Virus record (IMG/VR): IMGVR_UViG_3300027847_001698
Length of the DNA: 64,000 bases
Reading direction: 5' to 3' (one strand)
Source of the DNA: a virus
Lineage: Duplodnaviria > Caudoviricetes
The translations under genes were made by a program, and so were the position numbers. Below, one piece after another: positions 10,238-60,705 of the stretch; within the stretch, counting starts at the first letter, position 1, and each line of letters opens with the position of its first letter. The notes under the pieces are model-generated. The model had not been told where the DNA came from. It saw only the letters and a program-made list of their open reading frames with translations, and did not search any database.

Positions 10238-10254
10238 TATAGATATATATAGAA
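10238..10254 (-). promoter_or_regulatory. Recurring motif class A (minus strand TTCTATATATATCTATA)
   Basis: 17-mer TATAGATATATATAGAA identical to 60689..60705; intergenic, upstream of a minus-strand gene. Confidence 0.55.
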
Positions 10255-10282
10255 TTAATTTTCTTACTTATTTACAGGTTAG

Positions 10283-10290
10283 AGAACAAA
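10283..10290 (+). promoter_or_regulatory. Recurring motif class B (AGAACAAA)
   Basis: Intergenic, 22 nt before ATG 10313; recurs before most plus-strand structural genes. Confidence 0.5.
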
Positions 10291-15787: not shown

Positions 15788-15799
15788 ATATATATAGAA
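15788..15799 (-). promoter_or_regulatory. Motif class A
   Basis: ATATATATAGAA, the 12-mer shared with 10243..10254 and 60694..60705. Confidence 0.5.
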
Positions 15800-15834
15800 T
15801 GAGTTTATTAAACCAAGATACGATTAATACGACA

Positions 15835-15842
15835 AGAACAAA
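15835..15842 (+). promoter_or_regulatory. Motif class B (AGAACAAA)
   Basis: At the head of the plus-strand structural gene run. Confidence 0.5.
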
Positions 15843-51340: not shown

Positions 51341-51937
51341 CTAGTCCTTGATTAAGGACAAAAACTCAGTTCTAGTCTGAGGTTGATTTTTAAATTTTCC
51401 TTTCATAGCTGAGGTTATCATTGAAGCATTTTGCTTCTTGACACCTCTACATATCATACAGAAATGCTGTGCTTCCATTATTACTCCGACACCATCTGGC
51501 TTTAAATACATGTCCATGGTCTCGGCAATGTCAACAGTCATTTTTTCCTGAATTTGTAATCTACTGGCAAATATATCAACAAGTCTTGCCATCTTAGATA
51601 ATCCTAATACTTTTCCGTTTGGAAGATAACCTATATGACATACCCCACTAAACGGTAGCATATGATGCTCACATATTGAAGTAAAATCAATATTTTTACA
51701 CATTACTATCTCGTCAGCGAGTTCTCCCTCACCTAAACCTTCTTGGAAGAATGTAGATAACACTGTAGAAATATCATGATTGTATCCAGCATACAATTCT
51801 ATCCATGATTTTACAACCCTGAATGGGGTATCAATCAATCCTTCTCTTGTTGGATTATCTCCAATAGATGCAAGAATTGATTTAACATTATCCATTGCTC
51901 CTGGAAACTTTGCTTCTACTTCTTCTTTAGTTATCAT
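51341..51937 (-). CDS. folE: GTP cyclohydrolase I
   Basis: TPFRV, SICEHHMLPF, LSKMAR, RLQIQE, HFCMICRGV. Confidence 0.97.
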   Translation of the reverse strand: MITKEEVEAKFPGAMDNVKSILASIGDNPTREGLIDTPFRVVKSWIELYAGYNHDISTVLSTFFQEGLGEGELADEIVMCKNIDFTSICEHHMLPFSGVCHIGYLPNGKVLGLSKMARLVDIFASRLQIQEKMTVDIAETMDMYLKPDGVGVIMEAQHFCMICRGVKKQNASMITSAMKGKFKNQPQTRTEFLSLIKD

Positions 51938-54900
51938 TATAATTCCTCTTTTATTTCGTAGTCTAATCCCATAGTCTTTAATTCTGATTGAAATAATCTG
52001 ATTGACTGACTTACGTCATCATCATTTTCATCCAATTTCATATCATCATTTTGGATCATTTTTGAGATAGTAGCATTTCTCTTTTTGATTGAATCCGATT
52101 TAGTGGTAAGAAACTCCCACAAATTAGATTCGGCTCCATGACCTGCTACTGCCCAAACTTCCATTTCTCCTAATCTTTGTCCACCCTTTCTATTCTTGCC
52201 ATCAAGCGGTTGACATGTTTTAGATGAATATGGTCCAACTCCTCTATGGGCTATTTTATCCTTTGATATATGATTCATCTTTATAAAATATTGATAACCT
52301 ACTGCAATCTCATTGATTATATTCTGTTCAAAATAAGATGGATCCTTATTGTGTTCATCATCCCCATAAGGATCATAACACGGATACTCCATTCTGGTTC
52401 CAGTATAATCCATTGCCTCTGATAATTTATCAACTGGGGTTGATTCATACGGAGGCTGAATAACATAGAACGAATCAATATGATTGACAATATACTCTAC
52501 TGATACTGCTTCTAAAAAGAGTTTCATTTGATGAGTATACTCTTTATTTTTAGTACTATCAATAATCTTTATATAGTTTAAAATGAATTCTTTAATTTCT
52601 TCTTCTTCTTCTTTATCTTCGAACTTCTTAACAATAATGTTTCTCATATCTTGAACGGACATTGCCATATGCAACTCAAAGAGCTGCCCAATATTCATTC
52701 TTGAAATCACACCTAATGGGTTCAGTACAACATCTGCACTTTGACCATTTTCTAATCTAGGCATTTCATGTTCTGGAACTATCTTTGAAATGATTCCCTT
52801 GTTTCCATGCCTGTTCCCAATTTTATCACCAACTTCAATTGGTCGTTTATACATTGCTGTTATTTCGAATCTAATCCCATCAATAGATCCACCTTTTACT
52901 TTATACGTCCCTCTCTTCTTCTCAGTGTTATCAATTGCAATTGATTCCAAGAAGTGACCTAACTGATCTTGACTAAGATACGTAGATAGGTTATCAATCA
53001 TACTAGTCCGATCTTTATTCTTTTGTGCTATCAATGATGTCACGAATGTATCATATTGTGGAAACTCTTTATTCCACTTGTTAGCAAAAAGTTTTACATC
53101 AGTGATAACACAATCTTCAGTTACCACCTTTTCAAACGGTTCATCAAATATCATATCCAGACTATCATTAATACCAGTCAATGTCTTTATCTTGGCATAT
53201 ATGTCACCTTTAGTCAAAACATCTCCAATATTAGGAATTCCCTTATATGCAGTTTCATCATCTCCAAGATTCAGTAAAAGCTTATTTGGGGGAACTTCAA
53301 ATGTCAAGTCTAAATAATGAACTGATGTCAATTCATTGTCTTTAACCAATCTATCAGATATTACTATAGCATCTTCAAAGTTATAACCATGCCATATAGT
53401 AACAGCAGTCAATAAGTTTTTACCAACAGTAAGTCTACCTTGTTTCAAATAATTACTTTCTGCAATCATTTGATCCTTCTTGAATGTATGACCTATATCA
53501 AAATAAACATGATAAAAATCATATATAGACAAGAATAACTTTTTGTAACCAATATTAAACGCTTGACATTTCTTGTTATCAAATTGAACAACTATGACAC
53601 TATCATCCTTGAATACCACAGTACCATCTCTAGAAGCGACAAAGCAGAATGAGGTATACTTGGTATACATTCCCTCCACTCCAGATTGTACTAGTGGTAC
53701 ATCGAAGTTTTCTAACATAATAGCATGACGTTGTTGGGAACTAGACATTTGTAATCTAGTTGGATCATCATGTTCTAAAAACGGAACATGTGATATGGCA
53801 ATTGAATTTCTGCAATCACCTTCCCCTTTATTAAACGTCAAATCATTTCCAAGCTGTATTGTTGGTGTCAAATATTGAACTGTTCCACAATTTTCTCTAT
53901 CCCCTGTATCCGCAGGACATACATGACTCTTCATTGAAGGATGTATATCTCTTAGGTATGGAGGAACATTTCCCTTTTCAAATCCACCTGGCCCAGACAA
54001 TGATAACCTAGTTAACATTGCTAACTCTGATAATGGGTTGATTGAAAAGTCAAACTGTACAATTGCAGACTGATTTATATTGTTTAGTATAACTTTAGAA
54101 TTATTCCGAAATCTATTCTTCTTAGATTGTCTCAATGAAACAATCATCTGGTAGAAGTCTCTAGCCAGATGAGAGTAAACTAATTGTTCAGAAAATCTAA
54201 TTCGTTTATTTGAATAGTCTAAATCGTCATTATCCCAATCTCCTAATGAGCTAATCAATTCCTCTAATACATTTGGTGTGGTGAGGAATTCCTTAGTGAA
54301 AATATCTACCTCAGATATTAGAAGAACGTTATTAACAATATCAACGTCCTCTTTTCTATTAAAGTACTGAGATAACAATCTCTTCTTGCTTGAAGGAGAG
54401 TCAATCAAATCTTTAATATCTTGTGCCAAATCGTAATCAATAGTAACATTGGTAGATAACGAATCTTCCTTTGTTATACCAAATCTATCCTTAATCTTAT
54501 CTTCTCCCAAATAAGCATAGACAAGATAACAAAACGGAACTTCCTTACCAAACAGAGTAACATAGTAAAAGTAAGGTCGTCTAAGACGTTGTTTCTTAGT
54601 TAAAGTAAAATTATGAATATTGGTCCTGAGTTTAATTATATCATTTCTTCGAATCAAAGGTCTATCAAACAATTGAAAGATCGAAACTTTTTTGTTTCCA
54701 CCAATAAAGAAATGATTATCTACAAGCCAAGGAATTTCATATTCTAAATCTAACGTCTTATTATCACCATGAACCATCGAAATTTTCAATATTCGAGATA
54801 TTGTTTGTTTTAATTCAGAGCGGTCAACTTTTTCTGGTCGTTCAACAGAAATAGAACTAACTCGAATACCATACTGTTCGCCACATTGCAGCATCTTAGT

Positions 54901-54996
54901 TATATTAGAAACAAGACTGTTTTCCCAGTCTTTCTGTCTAAGATCAAATATATTATGTTTACTTAATATATAATCAGGTACACATAGATTTAACAT
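51937..54996 (-). CDS. Multi-subunit RNA polymerase beta subunit (phage)
   Basis: GDKIGNRHGNKG, NPLGVISRMNIGQ, KMNHISKDK, GGQRLGEMEVWA. Confidence 0.96.
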   Translation of the reverse strand: MLNLCVPDYILSKHNIFDLRQKDWENSLVSNITKMLQCGEQYGIRVSSISVERPEKVDRSELKQTISRILKISMVHGDNKTLDLEYEIPWLVDNHFFIGGNKKVSIFQLFDRPLIRRNDIIKLRTNIHNFTLTKKQRLRRPYFYYVTLFGKEVPFCYLVYAYLGEDKIKDRFGITKEDSLSTNVTIDYDLAQDIKDLIDSPSSKKRLLSQYFNRKEDVDIVNNVLLISEVDIFTKEFLTTPNVLEELISSLGDWDNDDLDYSNKRIRFSEQLVYSHLARDFYQMIVSLRQSKKNRFRNNSKVILNNINQSAIVQFDFSINPLSELAMLTRLSLSGPGGFEKGNVPPYLRDIHPSMKSHVCPADTGDRENCGTVQYLTPTIQLGNDLTFNKGEGDCRNSIAISHVPFLEHDDPTRLQMSSSQQRHAIMLENFDVPLVQSGVEGMYTKYTSFCFVASRDGTVVFKDDSVIVVQFDNKKCQAFNIGYKKLFLSIYDFYHVYFDIGHTFKKDQMIAESNYLKQGRLTVGKNLLTAVTIWHGYNFEDAIVISDRLVKDNELTSVHYLDLTFEVPPNKLLLNLGDDETAYKGIPNIGDVLTKGDIYAKIKTLTGINDSLDMIFDEPFEKVVTEDCVITDVKLFANKWNKEFPQYDTFVTSLIAQKNKDRTSMIDNLSTYLSQDQLGHFLESIAIDNTEKKRGTYKVKGGSIDGIRFEITAMYKRPIEVGDKIGNRHGNKGIISKIVPEHEMPRLENGQSADVVLNPLGVISRMNIGQLFELHMAMSVQDMRNIIVKKFEDKEEEEEIKEFILNYIKIIDSTKNKEYTHQMKLFLEAVSVEYIVNHIDSFYVIQPPYESTPVDKLSEAMDYTGTRMEYPCYDPYGDDEHNKDPSYFEQNIINEIAVGYQYFIKMNHISKDKIAHRGVGPYSSKTCQPLDGKNRKGGQRLGEMEVWAVAGHGAESNLWEFLTTKSDSIKKRNATISKMIQNDDMKLDENDDDVSQSIRLFQSELKTMGLDYEIKEEL

Positions 54997-57749
54997 TCTA
55001 TTTCCGCCACCGGTTTATCATTTGTCATAATTTTTTCGAGAATTCCTGATGATTCCCCATCTCCAGAAATTATTCCATCTATCAAATATGATTTTGGTTT
55101 GCTGAATGCAAGTGCAAGAAGCCATGATTCCCTAGATGGGATCGACTCAATACTAACCATTTCATAATCTGTTATATCTCTTTCCGGATTAACTCTCCAT
55201 CTCATTTTCCCATTACGCATCATTTGAGAGACTATGCACTCATAATGAACCAATAGGACTAATTTATAAGCCGAGTATACACCGAATAGCTTCATAAGAG
55301 AATCGTAATAAGAATTCTTTTCACTTGCATGAAATACTTTCTTTACACGACTCAAATCATTTACAATATCTTGTTGTTGAGAAGCGTCTCCAGTTGATTT
55401 CTTTGCTGCACCTGATGTATGAAACGTTCTTAACACTAACTGGGTTGATACTTCTCCCATTGCTTGTGCTGCAATAATGCCAATGTATTTAGAATGTAAA
55501 TACTTATGACTTGACCCATAACATGTTTGACACACGCCATGGTCTTCACAAAACAACGGAGATCGAACATGTACTAATTGTCCCAGAAATGAATGATAGT
55601 TACCATATGTAATTTCAACTAATCCATCATCTGTTACACTATACCGTCCTATTAGAGACTTTGCTAATTTCAATCCTCCATTTTCCTTCTCGGGAATATT
55701 AATTGCAAGAGTATCTACTGTACCACAATCTTCGTTTTTACCCAATTCAAGATTAACAGAACAATACACCAATTTTCTAGTTAAGTATCCAGAATCTCCA
55801 GTGTTAAGTGCTGTATCTAATAATCCTTTTCTTGAACCATAGCAAGAGATGAAAAAATCATCTCTAGTCAATCCACCAATTAGATTACTCTTAATTGGTG
55901 TTTCAATGATCTTCCCTGCAAAGTTAGAAACAAATCCTCTACACAGCACAATCTGGTTCGCTTGATCCCATGATCCTCTTGAACCCGAATCGATGAATAG
56001 GGAATAAGGGAATGCTTCTCGTACCTTCTCTTGTATTTCTGTTGATTGAATCTTAGAGAATTTATCACCCCACTCTAATTCAGGATCATCCATTATATCG
56101 GACACTATTGTATCAGCGCCTTTTAATAACATATTCTTTAATGACATAGTACAACCAAATCGAGATGTAGACTTAAATCCTAACACCTTTATATCGTCTA
56201 AAATATCACACACTTGATCAGAGTTTCTAGTTCTAGCCAAATCATCCAACAAAACTCTCAACAGTTTTTTATCAATTACTTCATTGATGAATGGATAATC
56301 TGGCAATATGCTATTGAATTCAACTCTTCCTTCGTATGTATCAATGCCATCTGCTATCACCTTTTTAGATTCGTCTTCTTTGGTTAAGAGATATAATCCT
56401 AAAATTATATCCTGATTAACACCAAGAATAAGACTTCCAGTAGTTGGACAGATCAGATTGTTCTTTATAGATAACTTCTCTTTGCATTCTGCCGTGGTTT
56501 CTTCTGTCAACGGTCTATATATTGCCATTTGATCTCCATCAAAATCTGCATTATATGGCTCGCATACCATCGGATGTATTTTAATTACATTGTCAGTATT
56601 GATTAATACATCAAATGACAATATTCCCATTCTATGTAACGTTGGTTGTCTATTAAGAATAACGGATGTACCCTCACAACAGTTCTTTACAACATCTAAT
56701 AATGAGAGATCTTTAATTTTTATACATGAATCAATATGATCTATTGCTGAATCATATCGTTTGAATGTTCTCTTCTCTAGTAATTTGTTTGCTAGTTCCA
56801 ATTTATACAATTCAAGTGCAAGCACATAAGGTATAGAGCATTGATTTAATCTCAAACTAGGTTCAGGTGCAATAACTGCTCTCCCTGAAAAATCAACTCT
56901 CTTGCCCAAAATCGATCCTCTGATCAATCCTGTTTTCTTACTCAACTTCTTGAATATAAAATCATAAAGAGACGTTACATGTCGTTGAAGATTTCTAAAT
57001 GTGGCTTCCCGTATTCCTGCAACCGCAGCAGTTTCTAAATGGTCGTCCTTCATTAAAATCGAGAAATTCAAGATAGTTGTTAAATATCTATTCATCTCAT
57101 CTCGCATTTGAGCATCCTTTGTCTTAGACACTGGTCTAAACTCAGGTGGTAAGATAATTATATTAGACATGTAAAATTTAGACAAGTGAGTCTCAACTAT
57201 TTTCCACATCGCATCTTTATCTTTCTTTCTATCACACTCAAACTTTACGAGATCGTAAACTCCATCAACACCAATAAACACAGGTTTATCATCTGGTAAT
57301 GTTGGAAGTTCCTCTTCATCTGATTCCCTCTCTTTGAATATTCGTTCAACTAATACATAACTAGCCAACTCTTCATCAAAATAATATGCATAAATCTTTT
57401 CATTAAAGAACAGATTCTCTATCATGTCCCTCATTTTTGTCTTTCCTGCCCTAATAATTAATTGATACATAATAGGGTTTAGTATTGGAAAGGGTAACAC
57501 TATTTTTGCAAATCTTTTTCGTCTCTCATTAGAATATGTAATGTCTACATCACATGTTCCACATTTATCTCCAATTCTAGATCTTCCCCAATACGTTTTA
57601 CAACCACACCATGTAGTTTTGACTGGTCCGAATATCTTTTCACTGAAAAGACCTTCTGGGTGAAATCCGTGCTTTGAATAAATTTTAGAACTTGATACTT
57701 GGGGTATACCCTCGCAGAATTCATCTACGTTAAAGAAATCTAATTTCAC
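54990..57749 (-). CDS. Multi-subunit RNA polymerase beta' subunit (phage)
   Basis: GLFSEKIFGP, zinc ribbon, GKRVDFSGRAVI, NRQPTLH, NADFDGD, bridge helix TGDSGYLTRKLV, trigger loop GEVSTQLVLRTFH. Confidence 0.97.
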   Translation of the reverse strand: MKLDFFNVDEFCEGIPQVSSSKIYSKHGFHPEGLFSEKIFGPVKTTWCGCKTYWGRSRIGDKCGTCDVDITYSNERRKRFAKIVLPFPILNPIMYQLIIRAGKTKMRDMIENLFFNEKIYAYYFDEELASYVLVERIFKERESDEEELPTLPDDKPVFIGVDGVYDLVKFECDRKKDKDAMWKIVETHLSKFYMSNIIILPPEFRPVSKTKDAQMRDEMNRYLTTILNFSILMKDDHLETAAVAGIREATFRNLQRHVTSLYDFIFKKLSKKTGLIRGSILGKRVDFSGRAVIAPEPSLRLNQCSIPYVLALELYKLELANKLLEKRTFKRYDSAIDHIDSCIKIKDLSLLDVVKNCCEGTSVILNRQPTLHRMGILSFDVLINTDNVIKIHPMVCEPYNADFDGDQMAIYRPLTEETTAECKEKLSIKNNLICPTTGSLILGVNQDIILGLYLLTKEDESKKVIADGIDTYEGRVEFNSILPDYPFINEVIDKKLLRVLLDDLARTRNSDQVCDILDDIKVLGFKSTSRFGCTMSLKNMLLKGADTIVSDIMDDPELEWGDKFSKIQSTEIQEKVREAFPYSLFIDSGSRGSWDQANQIVLCRGFVSNFAGKIIETPIKSNLIGGLTRDDFFISCYGSRKGLLDTALNTGDSGYLTRKLVYCSVNLELGKNEDCGTVDTLAINIPEKENGGLKLAKSLIGRYSVTDDGLVEITYGNYHSFLGQLVHVRSPLFCEDHGVCQTCYGSSHKYLHSKYIGIIAAQAMGEVSTQLVLRTFHTSGAAKKSTGDASQQQDIVNDLSRVKKVFHASEKNSYYDSLMKLFGVYSAYKLVLLVHYECIVSQMMRNGKMRWRVNPERDITDYEMVSIESIPSRESWLLALAFSKPKSYLIDGIISGDGESSGILEKIMTNDKPVAEIEC

Positions 57750-57763
57750 GTCTAGTTCCTAAT

Positions 57764-58327
57764 TTATGAAGTTGATACACTAAATGATATTGAATTTATC
57801 TTATCTGCAATGATACCGTTAATGCTTTCTTTTAAATCTGAAGTTCTATTAGCTAGTGTGGCGTTTATAGCTGGAGCTAATGTATTATCGAATTCTTGTT
57901 TAATAAGTCTAATTAAATTTTCATCACAATATCGTTCAATTACATCAGTTATTATTGAATGATCTCTTTTAATAACTGCTTCAACTCCTTCCATGATAAC
58001 AGTAGATAGAATATCATTAGTTAACATGTTAGTAACTGAAACGTCTGCACATAGCATATCAAGATCACCATACTTCTCAACACTTTTAAACTTCCACCCT
58101 TTAGTCTGTCTATCATAACTCATTCGGCTATTGTACTTCGCAAACTGTTTCTTAAACTCCTCAATTCCAGTAATACCATAATCCTGTTCTAAGTCTGTAG
58201 ATATAATATGTAACTCTTTTAAGGTAAAACTATCCTGATTATCAAATTCTTCCGTGGCAGTTATAACATCGTTTATTAATGTTTCTATGTTATTAACTAC
58301 AGGAACTGAATTAATTTCATCTGACAT
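57764..58327 (-). CDS. Hypothetical protein
   Basis: 187 aa, coupled between the E2-like gene and beta'. Confidence 0.65.
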   Translation of the reverse strand: MSDEINSVPVVNNIETLINDVITATEEFDNQDSFTLKELHIISTDLEQDYGITGIEEFKKQFAKYNSRMSYDRQTKGWKFKSVEKYGDLDMLCADVSVTNMLTNDILSTVIMEGVEAVIKRDHSIITDVIERYCDENLIRLIKQEFDNTLAPAINATLANRTSDLKESINGIIADKINSISFSVSTS

Positions 58328-59029
58328 TTATTTCTCCTTTAGTATATGTTTAAGAGTTTCAAAATGCTTATTATGCTCATATGGATTATCCATATTTACA
58401 TATCCTAACATCATCTTAGCTATATTTAAAGAATCCGGAGTTAAACACATTCGCTTAATAGCGGAATCCATGCAAAATTTATTATTTAGTGGACTTAAAT
58501 TGGGATGTACACCTGTACAATATAAGCCCCCTCTTAATGTTTTGTCAATAGAAATCTTAAACTCTGTGATTCCATAACCTAACTGCCTTAATTCATCTGG
58601 GTTTGTCCTGATTATTTTTCCATTGTACAGTATCGAATTAATCGGAATATAATCAACCCATATTATCCATTTATTATTAACAAGATATCCTTGTTTTAAA
58701 ATTTCATTTATGGCTTGACATCCTTCAGTGGTAGCGAAATAGGTTAATCTCTTTACATCTGCCATTATCCTAGTCAAACTTGAAGCCAATGAAACGTGTG
58801 CCTTAACTTTACGTGATACTATAAATTTTCTAATGTCCCTTAATACATCAGATAAATTGATTTGAATATCGCCTATTATAATCAACCCTGTCCTATCTTT
58901 TGATAATCTATATCCCGATTTTTGTTTATTTATTAAACATACTGAATACATATTATCTTCATCATAATGTTCCCAATTATTAATATCTGATAACGTTAAT
59001 AATTTTGATACTTCATCTAATATGGTCAC
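58328..59029 (-). CDS. Prokaryotic E2/UBC-like protein
   Basis: HPNLSPLNNKFC (HPN plus Cys 11 residues on; 58472..58507) followed by LGYVNMDNPY. Confidence 0.55.
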   Translation of the reverse strand: MTILDEVSKLLTLSDINNWEHYDEDNMYSVCLINKQKSGYRLSKDRTGLIIIGDIQINLSDVLRDIRKFIVSRKVKAHVSLASSLTRIMADVKRLTYFATTEGCQAINEILKQGYLVNNKWIIWVDYIPINSILYNGKIIRTNPDELRQLGYGITEFKISIDKTLRGGLYCTGVHPNLSPLNNKFCMDSAIKRMCLTPDSLNIAKMMLGYVNMDNPYEHNKHFETLKHILKEK

Positions 59030-59304
59030 GCCGTTCCTGTTAATGGATTAACCGTGACCTCTAAATTGTTATCAAAATCTTTTCTGAACGTCAAAGCAAA
59101 CTTCTTTTGTGGGAATAATGTACATTCTGTTTTGACTTCAGCTTGTACTGTTTTAATAAAATCTAATATTGAAAATCTGGACCCGTCTACCTGTTTAGGT
59201 CTTTTAGAGGAATCAGATCTAATTGATATTTTCATATGTGGATTTTCATATATAAATCCACTTAATGCGTTTTCATTTTCTACTTGGTTAATTAATCGAT
59301 TCAT
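59026..59304 (-). CDS. Small protein, candidate beta-grasp ubiquitin-like modifier
   Basis: Apparent beta-beta-alpha-beta-beta hydrophobic pattern; ends EVTVNPLTG-TA; overlaps both the E1-like and E2-like genes. Confidence 0.35.
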   Translation of the reverse strand: MNRLINQVENENALSGFIYENPHMKISIRSDSSKRPKQVDGSRFSILDFIKTVQAEVKTECTLFPQKKFALTFRKDFDNNLEVTVNPLTGTA

Positions 59305-59851
59305 TTCTTTCTATCCTTTGTCCATCTTGTACATGTGCTCTAAGATTATAAACGTAGTAAGTATTAGGAAATAATAACTCTTTGTCTATTACATTACATA
59401 CTATACTTGTTGCCAAATCTACATATAAGAAATCTTTAGCTACAGAGTATTCGGAATAATCATCTGTAACTTTAGGGTCATCTCTGGTATCTATTATTAA
59501 AGTAGAACCATCTAGTGATATTCTTGCATGACTATTAATTGGTCTAGCCTTATCATCTCTACAATCTAAAATAATTCCTGTCTTATCTATATCCGTCTTA
59601 ATTTCTTTATGATGACAAACCAATTTTCCCAAATCTAATATTCCTAAACTTTCTATTAGGTCGGCTATTGCTACAACCTTTTCCACTCCTGCCATTGATG
59701 TATAAAATGGAGGTTCTACTACCCCATATGATATTACATCTTTGTCATAAATATGATAATCACGAAAAACTTTATTTCTCCAAAGTTTGAAGAATATATT
59801 TGAGCCAACTGTTCCACATCCAACTATCCGAACAATTTTAGTTTCATACAT
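59288..59851 (-). CDS. ThiF/MoeB/E1-like adenylation-fold protein
   Basis: IVGCGTVGS (GxGxxG), IYDKDVI, AGVEKV, ILDCRDD; lacks SNLxRQ and the CxxC zinc sites. Confidence 0.75.
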   Translation of the reverse strand: MYETKIVRIVGCGTVGSNIFFKLWRNKVFRDYHIYDKDVISYGVVEPPFYTSMAGVEKVVAIADLIESLGILDLGKLVCHHKEIKTDIDKTGIILDCRDDKARPINSHARISLDGSTLIIDTRDDPKVTDDYSEYSVAKDFLYVDLATSIVCNVIDKELLFPNTYYVYNLRAHVQDGQRIERNESIN

Positions 59852-60688: not shown

Positions 60689-60705
60689 TATAGATATATA
60701 TAGAA
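60689..60705 (-). promoter_or_regulatory. Motif class A at the head of the HAD-E1-Ubl-E2-RNAP run
   Basis: 17-mer identical to 10238..10254, in a 47-nt gap that also holds an AGGAGG RBS. Confidence 0.55.

What the first reader, a model, noticed from the sequence alone, without database searches (positions are those of the whole stretch)
51937..57749. Compact, unsplit two-barrel RNA polymerase with beta' transcribed before beta
Both subunits are single ORFs (919 and 1019 aa), unlike the split phiKZ/AR9 enzymes, shorter than bacterial RpoC/RpoB, and in the reverse of bacterial rpoBC order. Motifs mix bacterial-like (GGQR.GEME) and archaeal/eukaryote-like (GKRVDFS) states, as reported for deeply branching phage multimeric RNAPs. 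No alpha, omega or sigma gene is recognisable in the window, so assembly and promoter recognition are unexplained.
Basis: partly seen in the sequence, partly recalled or inferred. Interest (0 to 1): 0.6.

Follow-up and report, generated by a model that had tools for sequence, protein, structure and literature searches.

The report
Unsplit phage RNA polymerase core genes
These two genes encode the catalytic core of a marine jumbo phage's own bacterial-type RNA polymerase. It is an unsplit relative of the phiKZ/AR9 phage enzymes, and its genome also carries a second unsplit polymerase and a sigma-like factor, so the origin of phage two-polymerase systems can now be tested.

Summary
On the minus strand, 54990-57749 encodes a 919-aa beta' (NADFDGD, GKRVDFS, both zinc sites). 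Overlapping it by 7 nt, 51937-54996 encodes a 1019-aa beta (GGQRLGEM). Beta' comes first in all 80 related loci fetched. No sigma70, alpha or omega profile matches the 193-kb record.

- The enzyme is bacterial-type, not a bacterial/archaeal mix. It scores about three times higher against bacterial chains, and the F-for-Y state also occurs in one sampled bacterium.
- It is not a recent capture. Identity to bacterial beta' is 28-33% across many phyla, and it lies outside a monophyletic Bacteria.
- It fits the published mReC phage polymerases (Weinheimer & Aylward 2020).
- It is not alien to phiKZ/AR9. It groups with their virion and non-virion enzymes (SH-aLRT 99; alternatives rejected, AU p about 0.02).

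The same genome, and 5 of 5 long relatives, carry a second unsplit set; this scan had already noted that set (e1-5368750). New here: a 468-aa protein 36 kb away folds like AR9 gp226 and phiKZ gp68, the sigma-like subunits, so a promoter-recognition candidate exists.

My working model, inferred only, is that this compact set is the polymerase made after infection. Interest is moderate to high: a new variant of a known kind.

The parts
54990..57749 (-). beta' subunit gene (919 aa, GTG start): catalytic NADFDGD loop, N-terminal and second zinc sites, bridge helix and trigger-loop region
   Evidence: ORF. Pfam Rpb1_2/3/4/5. NADFDGD at 400 and GKRVDFS at 282. Invariant C48/C50/C63/C66 and C675/C734/C740/C743 in 18 family members. 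280-308 bits to bacterial beta' chains in the PDB.
51937..54996 (-). beta subunit gene (1019 aa), start overlapping the beta' stop by 7 nt
   Evidence: ORF. Pfam Rpb2_3/6/7. GGQRLGEM at 938. 222-268 bits to bacterial beta chains, 70-103 bits to archaeal/eukaryal chains and 88 bits to AR9 non-virion beta-C (7s00_C). Follows beta' in 80 of 80 related loci.
57764..58327 (-). 187-aa ORF ending 14 nt before beta'. It occupies the slot of a small helical protein ('family C') that precedes beta' in relatives. Candidate accessory protein, unproven.
   Evidence: Family C (62-97 aa, core MPDLDKLISKKVKEHF-like) ends 2-14 nt before beta' in 53 of 80 loci. Long forms of 171-175 aa occur in the closest relatives. 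hhalign picks the same core in this ORF (aa 146-173), but with P=0.088 only. No Pfam or PHROG family matches.
60694..60703 (-). promoter-like AT-rich motif (TTCTATATATAT, 'motif 2'), 33 nt before the first ATG of the co-directional gene block 60670..~49785 that contains beta' and beta
   Evidence: Sequence read. All 3 window copies are intergenic. In the whole record, 7 of 14 copies lie within 150 nt upstream of a same-strand start, where 2.6% is expected. It resembles the annotated AR9 early promoters, AAATATATATTAT. No transcript data.
51341..51937 (-). GTP cyclohydrolase gene abutting the beta stop codon (same strand, probably the same transcript); context, not a polymerase part
   Evidence: phrog_2197, E 1e-66. 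A GTP cyclohydrolase also follows beta in relatives L006, L008, L010 and L019.

Best explanation
Shown: the two ORFs are the beta' and beta catalytic subunits of a phage-encoded multisubunit RNA polymerase. It is bacterial-type but deeply diverged, of the mReC kind. The host genome is an uncultured marine jumbo myovirus, represented by a 193-kb partial record with tail sheath, baseplate and large-terminase genes.

Shown, with phylogenetic caveats: the enzyme belongs to one clade with the split virion and non-virion polymerases of phiKZ and AR9, and with a second, larger unsplit beta'/beta pair in the same genome (contig C1, 107291-117033). The lineage therefore carries the jumbo-phage two-polymerase system in unsplit form.

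Shown by sequence alignment: compared with every bacterial enzyme sampled, it has lost peripheral elements while keeping the active centre and both zinc sites. In E. coli numbering, beta' lacks about 309-325 (rudder), 656-679 (secondary-channel rim helices), 1153-1227 (jaw) and the C-terminal tail; beta lacks part of the flap tip.

Inferred: it works without alpha, omega or a sigma70-type factor. It takes promoter specificity from a 468-aa gp226/gp68-family subunit encoded at C1:119223-120629, which is 36 kb from the polymerase genes and outside the window.

Inferred, about even odds: this compact set is the polymerase made after infection (non-virion type). It would be expressed from an AT-rich early-type promoter together with the gp226-like gene, and would transcribe the AGAACAAA-type promoters found before structural genes and before the larger polymerase set. 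The larger set would then be made late and packaged.
For: Identity.

Family size and gene order: more than 120 protein clusters at 42-64% identity; 291 IMG/VR relatives; beta' then beta in 80 of 80 loci.

Not bacterial: the best GTDB beta' is 28-33% identical, spread over Bacteroidota, Firmicutes, Nitrospirota, Planctomycetota, Actinobacteria and others. Bacteria (14 rows, 9 or more phyla) are monophyletic against all phage sequences, SH-aLRT 100.

Clade with phiKZ/AR9: (small, large, virion, non-virion) has SH-aLRT 99. Placing small+large with bacteria, or with the isolate phages, is rejected (AU p 0.021 and 0.022).

Two sets. Five of 5 long relatives, including a complete 277-kb genome with terminal repeats, have two beta' genes. 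Their larger set is also beta' then beta.

Sigma-like subunit:
- The AR9 gp226 family profile (phrog_25005) hits the ortholog in relative G005 (E 1.5e-7).
- Orthologs are present in 6 of 6 genomes.
- hhalign of a 40-sequence profile against AR9 gp226 aligns 141 collinear columns (E 2e-4).
- The AlphaFold model has pLDDT 85. Its only PDB matches at E<=0.001 are 7s01_A, 7um0_A and 8que_B. These chains are AR9 gp226 and phiKZ gp68.

Non-virion role:
- The compact set scores higher to AR9 non-virion pieces than to virion pieces (95.5/76.6/114 against 69.7/41.2/61.6 bits). The large beta' N-part hits only the virion beta'-N piece (117 bits).
- Motif 2 precedes both the compact-polymerase block and the gp226-like gene. 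Motif 1 precedes tail sheath, baseplate wedge and the M48 peptidase-large beta unit; a further copy, outside the tally, lies at the called start of the 297-aa ORF that heads the large-beta' block.
- In AR9, early promoters of similar sequence precede the non-virion subunit genes and gp226.
Against: - The tree does not make the compact set sister to the phiKZ/AR9 non-virion enzymes. That clade is rejected at AU p=0.024, and the best tree joins compact+large, weakly. Higher similarity to non-virion pieces may only reflect slower evolution.
- The gp226-like gene lies directly upstream of the LARGE beta' in 3 of 6 genomes. A SNF2-type helicase follows the large beta, as a helicase follows the non-virion genes in phiKZ.
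- Motif 2 is not conserved in relatives. In three relatives the AGAACAAA motif sits directly before the compact-polymerase operon.
- The motifs were discovered in the same upstream regions used to score them, so their p-values are inflated.
- No transcript, proteome or binding data exist.
- The phiKZ and AR9 branches are very long (2.2-4.4 substitutions per site), and the supported tree is a 'quick' search, so long-branch artefacts are possible.
- The lost-element map rests on a sequence alignment at 28-30% identity.
Confidence: 0.6

Rival explanations
1. The roles are reversed. The larger set, together with the adjacent gp226-like subunit and the SNF2 helicase, is the non-virion (middle/late) holoenzyme. 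The compact set is the packaged or otherwise early enzyme.
For: The gp226-like gene is immediately upstream of the large beta' in G002, G003 and G004. A SNF2 helicase lies two genes after the large beta, paralleling gp68...gp71-74-gp75 in phiKZ and the helicase-polymerase linkage noted by Iyer et al. 2021. A compact+non-virion clade is rejected at AU p=0.024. In relatives L020, L026 and L032 the AGAACAAA motif precedes the compact operon.
Against: In this genome the large set sits behind the same motif as tail sheath and baseplate genes. The compact set and the gp226-like gene share the other motif. The large beta' N-part matches only the AR9 virion beta'-N piece (117 bits). A large+virion clade is not rejected (p 0.41) and is recovered in the beta-only tree (0.85).
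Confidence: 0.22
2. The two sets come from a duplication private to this lineage and divide labour in a way that does not map onto virion and non-virion. For example, both could be made after infection, one for middle and one for late genes, with host polymerase or another route handling early genes.
For: The best ML tree puts compact and large as sisters, though weakly (FastTree 0.59 and 0.11; open trichotomy with the virion clade in IQ-TREE). No T4-type capsid-targeting leader is found on any of the four subunits.
Against: Two paralogous sets plus a gp226/gp68-type factor is the exact parts list of the phiKZ/AR9 system. The absence of a sigma70-type gene for redirecting host polymerase argues for full self-sufficiency, which requires an injected enzyme.
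Confidence: 0.15
3. Recent capture of host rpoB/rpoC followed by shrinkage.
For: The overall architecture is bacterial-type: both zinc sites and the GGQR motif are present, and the best PDB matches are bacterial.
Against: Identity to any bacterial beta' is only 28-33%, with no preferred phylum. Bacteria are monophyletic to the exclusion of the phage sequences, SH-aLRT 100. The gene order is the reverse of rpoBC in all 80 relatives. The family spans hundreds of phage contigs at 40-64% identity.
Confidence: 0.02

Closest known systems
mReC polymerases (multimeric-RNAP-encoding Caudovirales; Weinheimer & Aylward, Nat Commun 2020, PMC7481178)
   Same: Whole beta and beta' genes on tailed-phage contigs from aquatic metagenomes, detectable with cellular COG/Pfam models. 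They form a clade outside, and sister to, Bacteria. The phages have T4-like morphogenesis genes, and some contigs exceed 200 kb. My tree gives the same placement.
   Different: The paper's main text, searched by keyword and read through its Results, mentions neither a second polymerase set per genome, nor beta'-first order, nor a link to phiKZ/AR9 enzymes, nor any specificity subunit. I did not check whether this contig is in their set of 97.
Non-virion RNA polymerase of AR9 and phiKZ (four beta/beta' pieces plus gp226 or gp68; PDB 7S01, 7OGP, 8QUE)
   Same: No alpha, omega or sigma70. The genome encodes a gp226/gp68-fold protein. It falls in the same phylogenetic clade. It scores better to AR9 non-virion than to virion pieces. 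An AT-rich promoter-like motif resembling AR9 early promoters lies ahead of its genes.
   Different: Both subunits are single polypeptides. It is far closer to bacterial enzymes (255-308 bits, against 88 bits to AR9 beta-C). It keeps the N-terminal zinc site. It is not sister to the non-virion clade in my trees (AU p 0.024). Pairing with the gp226-like protein is not shown.
Unsplit polymerases of cultured phages: Rhizobium RHph_TM30 (Kleczkowskaviridae), Cobetia Carin-5, Vibrio 1.031.O, Yersinia YerA41/GN1
   Same: Whole beta' genes of 1083-1263 aa. In Carin-5 the order is beta' then beta, with a roughly 200-aa ORF just upstream.
   Different: Only 23-31% identical. They fall outside the (compact, large, phiKZ, AR9) clade. 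They are longer, and beta is not adjacent in TM30 or 1.031.O.
Bacterial RpoB/RpoC core
   Same: Two double-psi beta-barrel subunits, NADFDGD, GGQR.GEM, two zinc sites, and a collinear domain order.
   Different: 28-33% identity. 220-490 aa (beta') and 130-470 aa (beta) shorter. Rudder, rim-helix tip, jaw, C-tail and part of the flap tip are missing. The gene order is reversed, and no alpha, omega or sigma partner was found.

Membership tests
mReC-type phage multisubunit RNA polymerase | Whole beta and beta' genes, matching cellular RNAP models, on a tailed-phage contig | tested here: met
   Pfam Rpb1/Rpb2 domains. Tail sheath, baseplate wedge and large terminase lie in the same window.
mReC-type phage multisubunit RNA polymerase | Sequences form a clade distinct from cellular homologues, next to Bacteria | tested here: met
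   Bacteria against all phage rows, SH-aLRT 100. No archaeal outgroup was available, so only separation from Bacteria was tested.
mReC-type phage multisubunit RNA polymerase | Gp23-type major capsid protein (PF07068) and the shared TerL family | not tested
   TerL matches phrog_2. The capsid gene was not located.
phiKZ/AR9-type two-polymerase system | Two paralogous beta/beta' sets in one genome | tested here: met
   Five of 5 long relatives also have two sets.
phiKZ/AR9-type two-polymerase system | beta and beta' each split into two or three polypeptides | tested here: not met
   Single ORFs of 919 and 1019 aa here, about 1000 and 1365 aa for the second set in relatives, with no internal stops.
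phiKZ/AR9-type two-polymerase system | gp68/gp226-family fifth subunit encoded in the genome | tested here: met
   phrog_25005 hit in the G005 ortholog. hhalign E 2e-4. Foldseek top three hits are AR9 gp226 (two entries) and phiKZ gp68. The direct phmmer, PHROG and PDB sequence searches with the protein or its 6-sequence profile were negative.
phiKZ/AR9-type two-polymerase system | No alpha, omega or sigma70-type genes | tested here: met
   The record is about 61% complete.
phiKZ/AR9-type two-polymerase system | Common ancestry with phiKZ/AR9 polymerases to the exclusion of bacterial ones | tested here: met
   SH-aLRT 99. Alternatives rejected at AU p 0.021-0.022. Caveat: long branches.
phiKZ/AR9-type two-polymerase system | One set packaged in the virion and injected | not testable with these tools
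   No virion proteome exists. No T4-type capsid-targeting leader on any subunit.
Non-virion polymerase orthologue specifically | Sister to phiKZ/AR9 non-virion subunits in a tree | tested here: not met
   The constrained tree is worse by 13.5 lnL, AU p 0.024.
Non-virion polymerase orthologue specifically | Genes expressed early from the promoter class read by the injected enzyme | tested here: inconclusive
   Motif 2 before the block resembles AR9 early promoters.
Bacterial rpoBC (host capture) | Nests within a bacterial phylum; rpoB before rpoC | tested here: not met

The most novel reading that the evidence does not exclude
This marine lineage preserves the whole jumbo-phage transcription kit in unsplit form: two polymerases plus a gp226/gp68-type sigma-like factor. 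If so, virion and non-virion polymerases arose by duplication inside one phage ancestor after a single divergence from the bacterial stem. The splitting into 4-5 pieces seen in phiKZ/AR9 would then be derived, not a pre-LUCA relic.
Probability: 0.4. Interest if true: 0.8.

Novelty: new variant of a known kind. Interest (0 to 1): 0.62.

Why it matters
A 2026 review states that it is unknown whether virion and non-virion phage polymerases arose by duplication or by two acquisitions. Iyer et al. 2021 argued that the split phage subunits are ancestral, pre-LUCA forms.

A large uncultured lineage bears on both questions. It comprises hundreds of contigs. It carries both polymerases as whole beta'/beta pairs, groups with the phiKZ/AR9 enzymes, still aligns well to bacterial RpoB/RpoC, and has a gp226/gp68-fold factor. 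That makes it an intermediate form that can anchor alignments and root those trees.

It also offers a two-gene core, plus one factor, for biochemical study of alpha- and omega-free assembly and of sigma-independent promoter recognition.

Tried and rejected
- Complex prediction of the family C small protein with beta' (alignments A2 and A3) returned 'no answer', score 0.00. This is neither support nor evidence against binding.
- phmmer of phiKZ gp68 and AR9 gp226 against a six-frame translation of the record found nothing. The two known subunits do not find each other by BLAST either, so this test had no power.
- The phrog_3209 profile (phiKZ gp68) found nothing in six genomes.
- Direct PHROG and PDB sequence searches with the 468-aa protein, and a 6-sequence profile against the PDB, did not find gp226. 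The only hit was a probably spurious match to T4 Soc, E 0.003.
- Pfam and PHROGs gave nothing for ten neighbours of the polymerase genes, nor for the ORFs upstream of beta' in relatives and isolates. This includes Carin-5's annotated 'sigma factor'.
- None of the four subunits carries a T4-like capsid-targeting leader.
- IQ-TREE with ultrafast bootstrap timed out. A background run was killed. The treekit AU test under the mixture model did not finish, so AU tests were run under LG+F+G4 on 25 rows.
- DNA-level search of the phage collection found no relative.
- I rejected the idea that AGAACAAA matches the full AR9 late promoter (AACA-N6-T[A/G]). Only the AACA core is shared, and the downstream T[A/G] is not kept.
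Full report
**Observation**

The window is bases 25369-89368 of a 193,518-bp IMG/VR record. The record is about 32% G+C, about 61% complete by CheckV, and labelled 'provirus'. On the minus strand, 54990-57749 is a 919-aa ORF and 51937-54996 a 1019-aa ORF, overlapping by 7 nt.

Pfam identifies the first as an RNA polymerase largest-subunit homologue (Rpb1 domains 2, 3, 4, 5). It identifies the second as the second-largest subunit (Rpb2 domains 3, 6, 7). The quoted motifs are present: NADFDGD at 400, GKRVDFS at 282 and GGQRLGEM at 938.

**What kind of polymerase it is**

Against all PDB chains, beta' scores 280-308 bits to bacterial beta'. Beta scores 222-268 bits to bacterial beta, but only 70-103 bits to archaeal/eukaryal subunits and 88 bits to the AR9 non-virion beta-C piece.

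Two four-cysteine clusters are invariant across 18 family members: C48, C50, C63, C66 and C675, C734, C740, C743. Their spacing matches the two bacterial beta' zinc sites (the E. coli comparison is from my own knowledge).

The supposed archaeal state GKRVDFS differs from the bacterial GKRVDYS by one residue. One of 27 sampled bacterial sequences also has F. The enzyme is therefore bacterial-type, not a mosaic.

**Not a recent capture**

A pattern scan of one genome per GTDB species returned bacterial beta' genes at only 28-33% identity. They came from Bacteroidota, Firmicutes, Nitrospirota, Planctomycetota, Verrucomicrobiota, Actinobacteria, Proteobacteria, Spirochaetes and candidate phyla, with no favoured group.

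By contrast, the protein has more than 120 metagenomic clusters at 42-64% identity and 885-1020 aa, and 291 relatives in IMG/VR. In all 80 fetched loci beta follows beta' on the same strand, most often with a 4-nt overlap. This fits the published mReC group.

**Why it is compact**

I aligned 16 family members with 22 bacterial pairs. The family lacks the following columns present in at least 80% of bacteria (E. coli numbering):
- beta' 200-222, 309-325, 524-540, 656-679, 1153-1227, 1265-1279 and 1359-1387;
- beta 7-19, 157-179, 371-387, 582-623, 640-656, 859-867, 898-904 and 919-926.

It also lacks the lineage-specific inserts of E. coli. From my knowledge of E. coli RNAP, these ranges correspond to the rudder, the tip of the secondary-channel rim helices, the jaw, the C-terminal tail that omega wraps, and part of the flap-tip helix that binds sigma region 4. 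The mapping rests on a 28-30% identity alignment and is provisional. It agrees with the absence of Sigma70_r2, Sigma70_r4, alpha (RNA_pol_L) and omega (Rpb6) matches in the record.

**A second polymerase and the phiKZ/AR9 connection**

The same record holds a second set outside the window. Its beta' is 1390 aa (C1:112861-117033, with a roughly 360-aa intein-like insert). Its beta is 1399 aa (C1:107291-111490).

All five long relatives tested have both a compact and a roughly 1000-aa beta'. These include a complete 277-kb genome with terminal repeats. In four of the five the second set was recovered as whole beta'-then-beta ORFs; in G003 the beta' ORF is cut short at 780 aa.

I built a concatenated beta'+beta tree of 35 rows and 1775 columns (IQ-TREE, LG+C20+F+G4 PMSF, quick search). 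It gives:
- Bacteria against all phage rows: 100;
- compact family: 100, and large family: 100;
- (compact, large, phiKZ/AR9 virion, phiKZ/AR9 non-virion): 99;
- the cultured unsplit phages TM30, 1.031.O and Carin-5 fall outside that clade.

AU tests under LG+F+G4 reject moving compact+large next to bacteria (p 0.021) or next to those isolates (p 0.022). Inside the clade the order is unresolved:
- compact+large is the ML solution;
- large+virion is not rejected (p 0.41);
- compact+non-virion is rejected (p 0.024).

The phiKZ and AR9 branches are very long, so these inner results need better models.

**Promoter recognition**

The AR9 gp226 family profile (phrog_25005) hit a 479-aa ORF in relative G005 (E 1.5e-7). 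Its ortholog in this genome is a 468-aa protein at C1:119223-120629, which would be window position 93855-95261. Orthologs occur in 6 of 6 genomes, and more than 100 hypothetical-protein clusters exist in metagenomes.

A 40-sequence profile aligns 141 collinear columns with AR9 gp226 (E 2e-4). Its AlphaFold model has mean pLDDT 85. Among 350,542 PDB chains, only three match at E<=0.001: 7s01_A, 7um0_A and 8que_B. I verified that these are AR9 gp226 and phiKZ gp68. Published work describes these as the fifth, sigma-like subunits of the non-virion enzymes. So a specificity factor exists, although not in the window.

**Which role this set plays**

Evidence for a non-virion role:
- The compact set scores higher to AR9 non-virion pieces than to virion pieces, while the large beta' N-part matches only the virion beta'-N piece.
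- Two promoter-like motifs partition the genome.
  - AGAACAAA lies within 150 nt upstream of a same-strand start in 15 of 31 copies, where 2.6% is expected. It precedes tail sheath, baseplate wedge and the M48 peptidase-large beta unit. Another copy, not counted among those 15, sits at the called start of the 297-aa ORF that heads the large-beta' block.
  - TTCTATATATAT does so in 7 of 14 copies. It precedes the block holding the compact polymerase (window 60694-60703) and the gp226-like gene.
- Annotated AR9 early promoters read AAATATATATTAT. They precede AR9's non-virion subunit genes and gp226.

Evidence against:
- the tree result above;
- the gp226-like gene adjoins the large beta' in three relatives;
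- a SNF2 helicase follows the large beta;
- the AT-rich motif is not conserved in relatives, and AGAACAAA precedes the compact operon in three of them.

I put the non-virion reading at roughly even odds.

**Possible extra subunit**

A small helical protein of 62-97 aa, with no known family, ends 2-14 nt before beta' in 53 of 80 loci. The closest relatives have 171-175-aa versions. The window's 187-aa ORF (57764-58327) occupies the same slot, with only weak similarity. Whether it binds the polymerase is unknown.

**Verdict**

The thing itself is a member of a published kind (mReC). What appears new is its placement as the unsplit counterpart of the phiKZ/AR9 two-polymerase system, complete with a gp226/gp68-fold factor. 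I did not find this in the literature I could search.

Noticed in passing
L008-L087, 2-14 nt upstream of beta'; window 57764-58327 by position: A small helical protein family (62-97 aa, conserved core like MPDLDKLISKKVKEHF) with no Pfam or PHROG match sits directly before beta' in 53 of 80 related loci. It is a candidate polymerase-associated protein.
   Followed up: partly
G000:C1:119223-120629 (window-equivalent 93855-95261; L211:1501-2904:+): A 468-aa hypothetical protein whose predicted fold matches only AR9 gp226 and phiKZ gp68 in the PDB. It is conserved in 6 of 6 related genomes and lies next to the larger beta' in three of them.
   Followed up: yes
G000:C1:112861-117033 (L005:12861-17033:-), residues about 782-1140: The larger beta' carries a roughly 360-aa insert at the trigger-loop region, with weak intein and LAGLIDADG hits. 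Relatives, whose beta' is about 1000 aa, lack it. An M48 peptidase gene and a 141-aa ORF are inserted between large beta' and beta in this genome only.
   Followed up: partly
L008, L019, L035, L071, L075, between beta' and beta: ORFs of 236-390 aa are inserted between the two polymerase genes in some relatives. They may be mobile (homing-endonuclease-type) genes. Not examined.
   Followed up: no
window 10243-10290 and 15788-15842; also C1:103526-103562, 119124-119183, 174490-174535, 184090-184136: The two promoter-like motifs, TTCTATATATAT and AGAACAAA, occur back to back on opposite strands at strand-switch regions, as if marking divergent promoters of two temporal classes.
   Followed up: partly
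L008-L087, 0.3-1.5 kb upstream of beta'; window 58328-59851 and C1:90507-91277: An E1-like gene of about 286 aa and a roughly 110-aa partner gene lie upstream of beta' in 74 of 80 loci. The ubiquitin-like module noted earlier in this scan is therefore tightly linked to the polymerase genes across the clade.
   Followed up: partly
L203:6294-6884 (Carin-5); L204:6178-6813 (Vibrio 1.031.O); L202:5988-6644 (RHph_TM30): Cultured phages with unsplit polymerases also have a roughly 200-aa ORF directly before beta'. The Carin-5 ORF is annotated 'RNA pol sigma factor', but no Pfam or PHROG match supports that. The 1.031.O and TM30 ORFs are homologous to each other (E 3e-6).
   Followed up: partly
window 51341-51937: A GTP cyclohydrolase gene abuts the beta stop codon. 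Relatives have a cyclohydrolase there too, and relative L006 has radical-SAM genes nearby. This hints at a 7-deazaguanine-type DNA modification pathway linked to the polymerase block.
   Followed up: no
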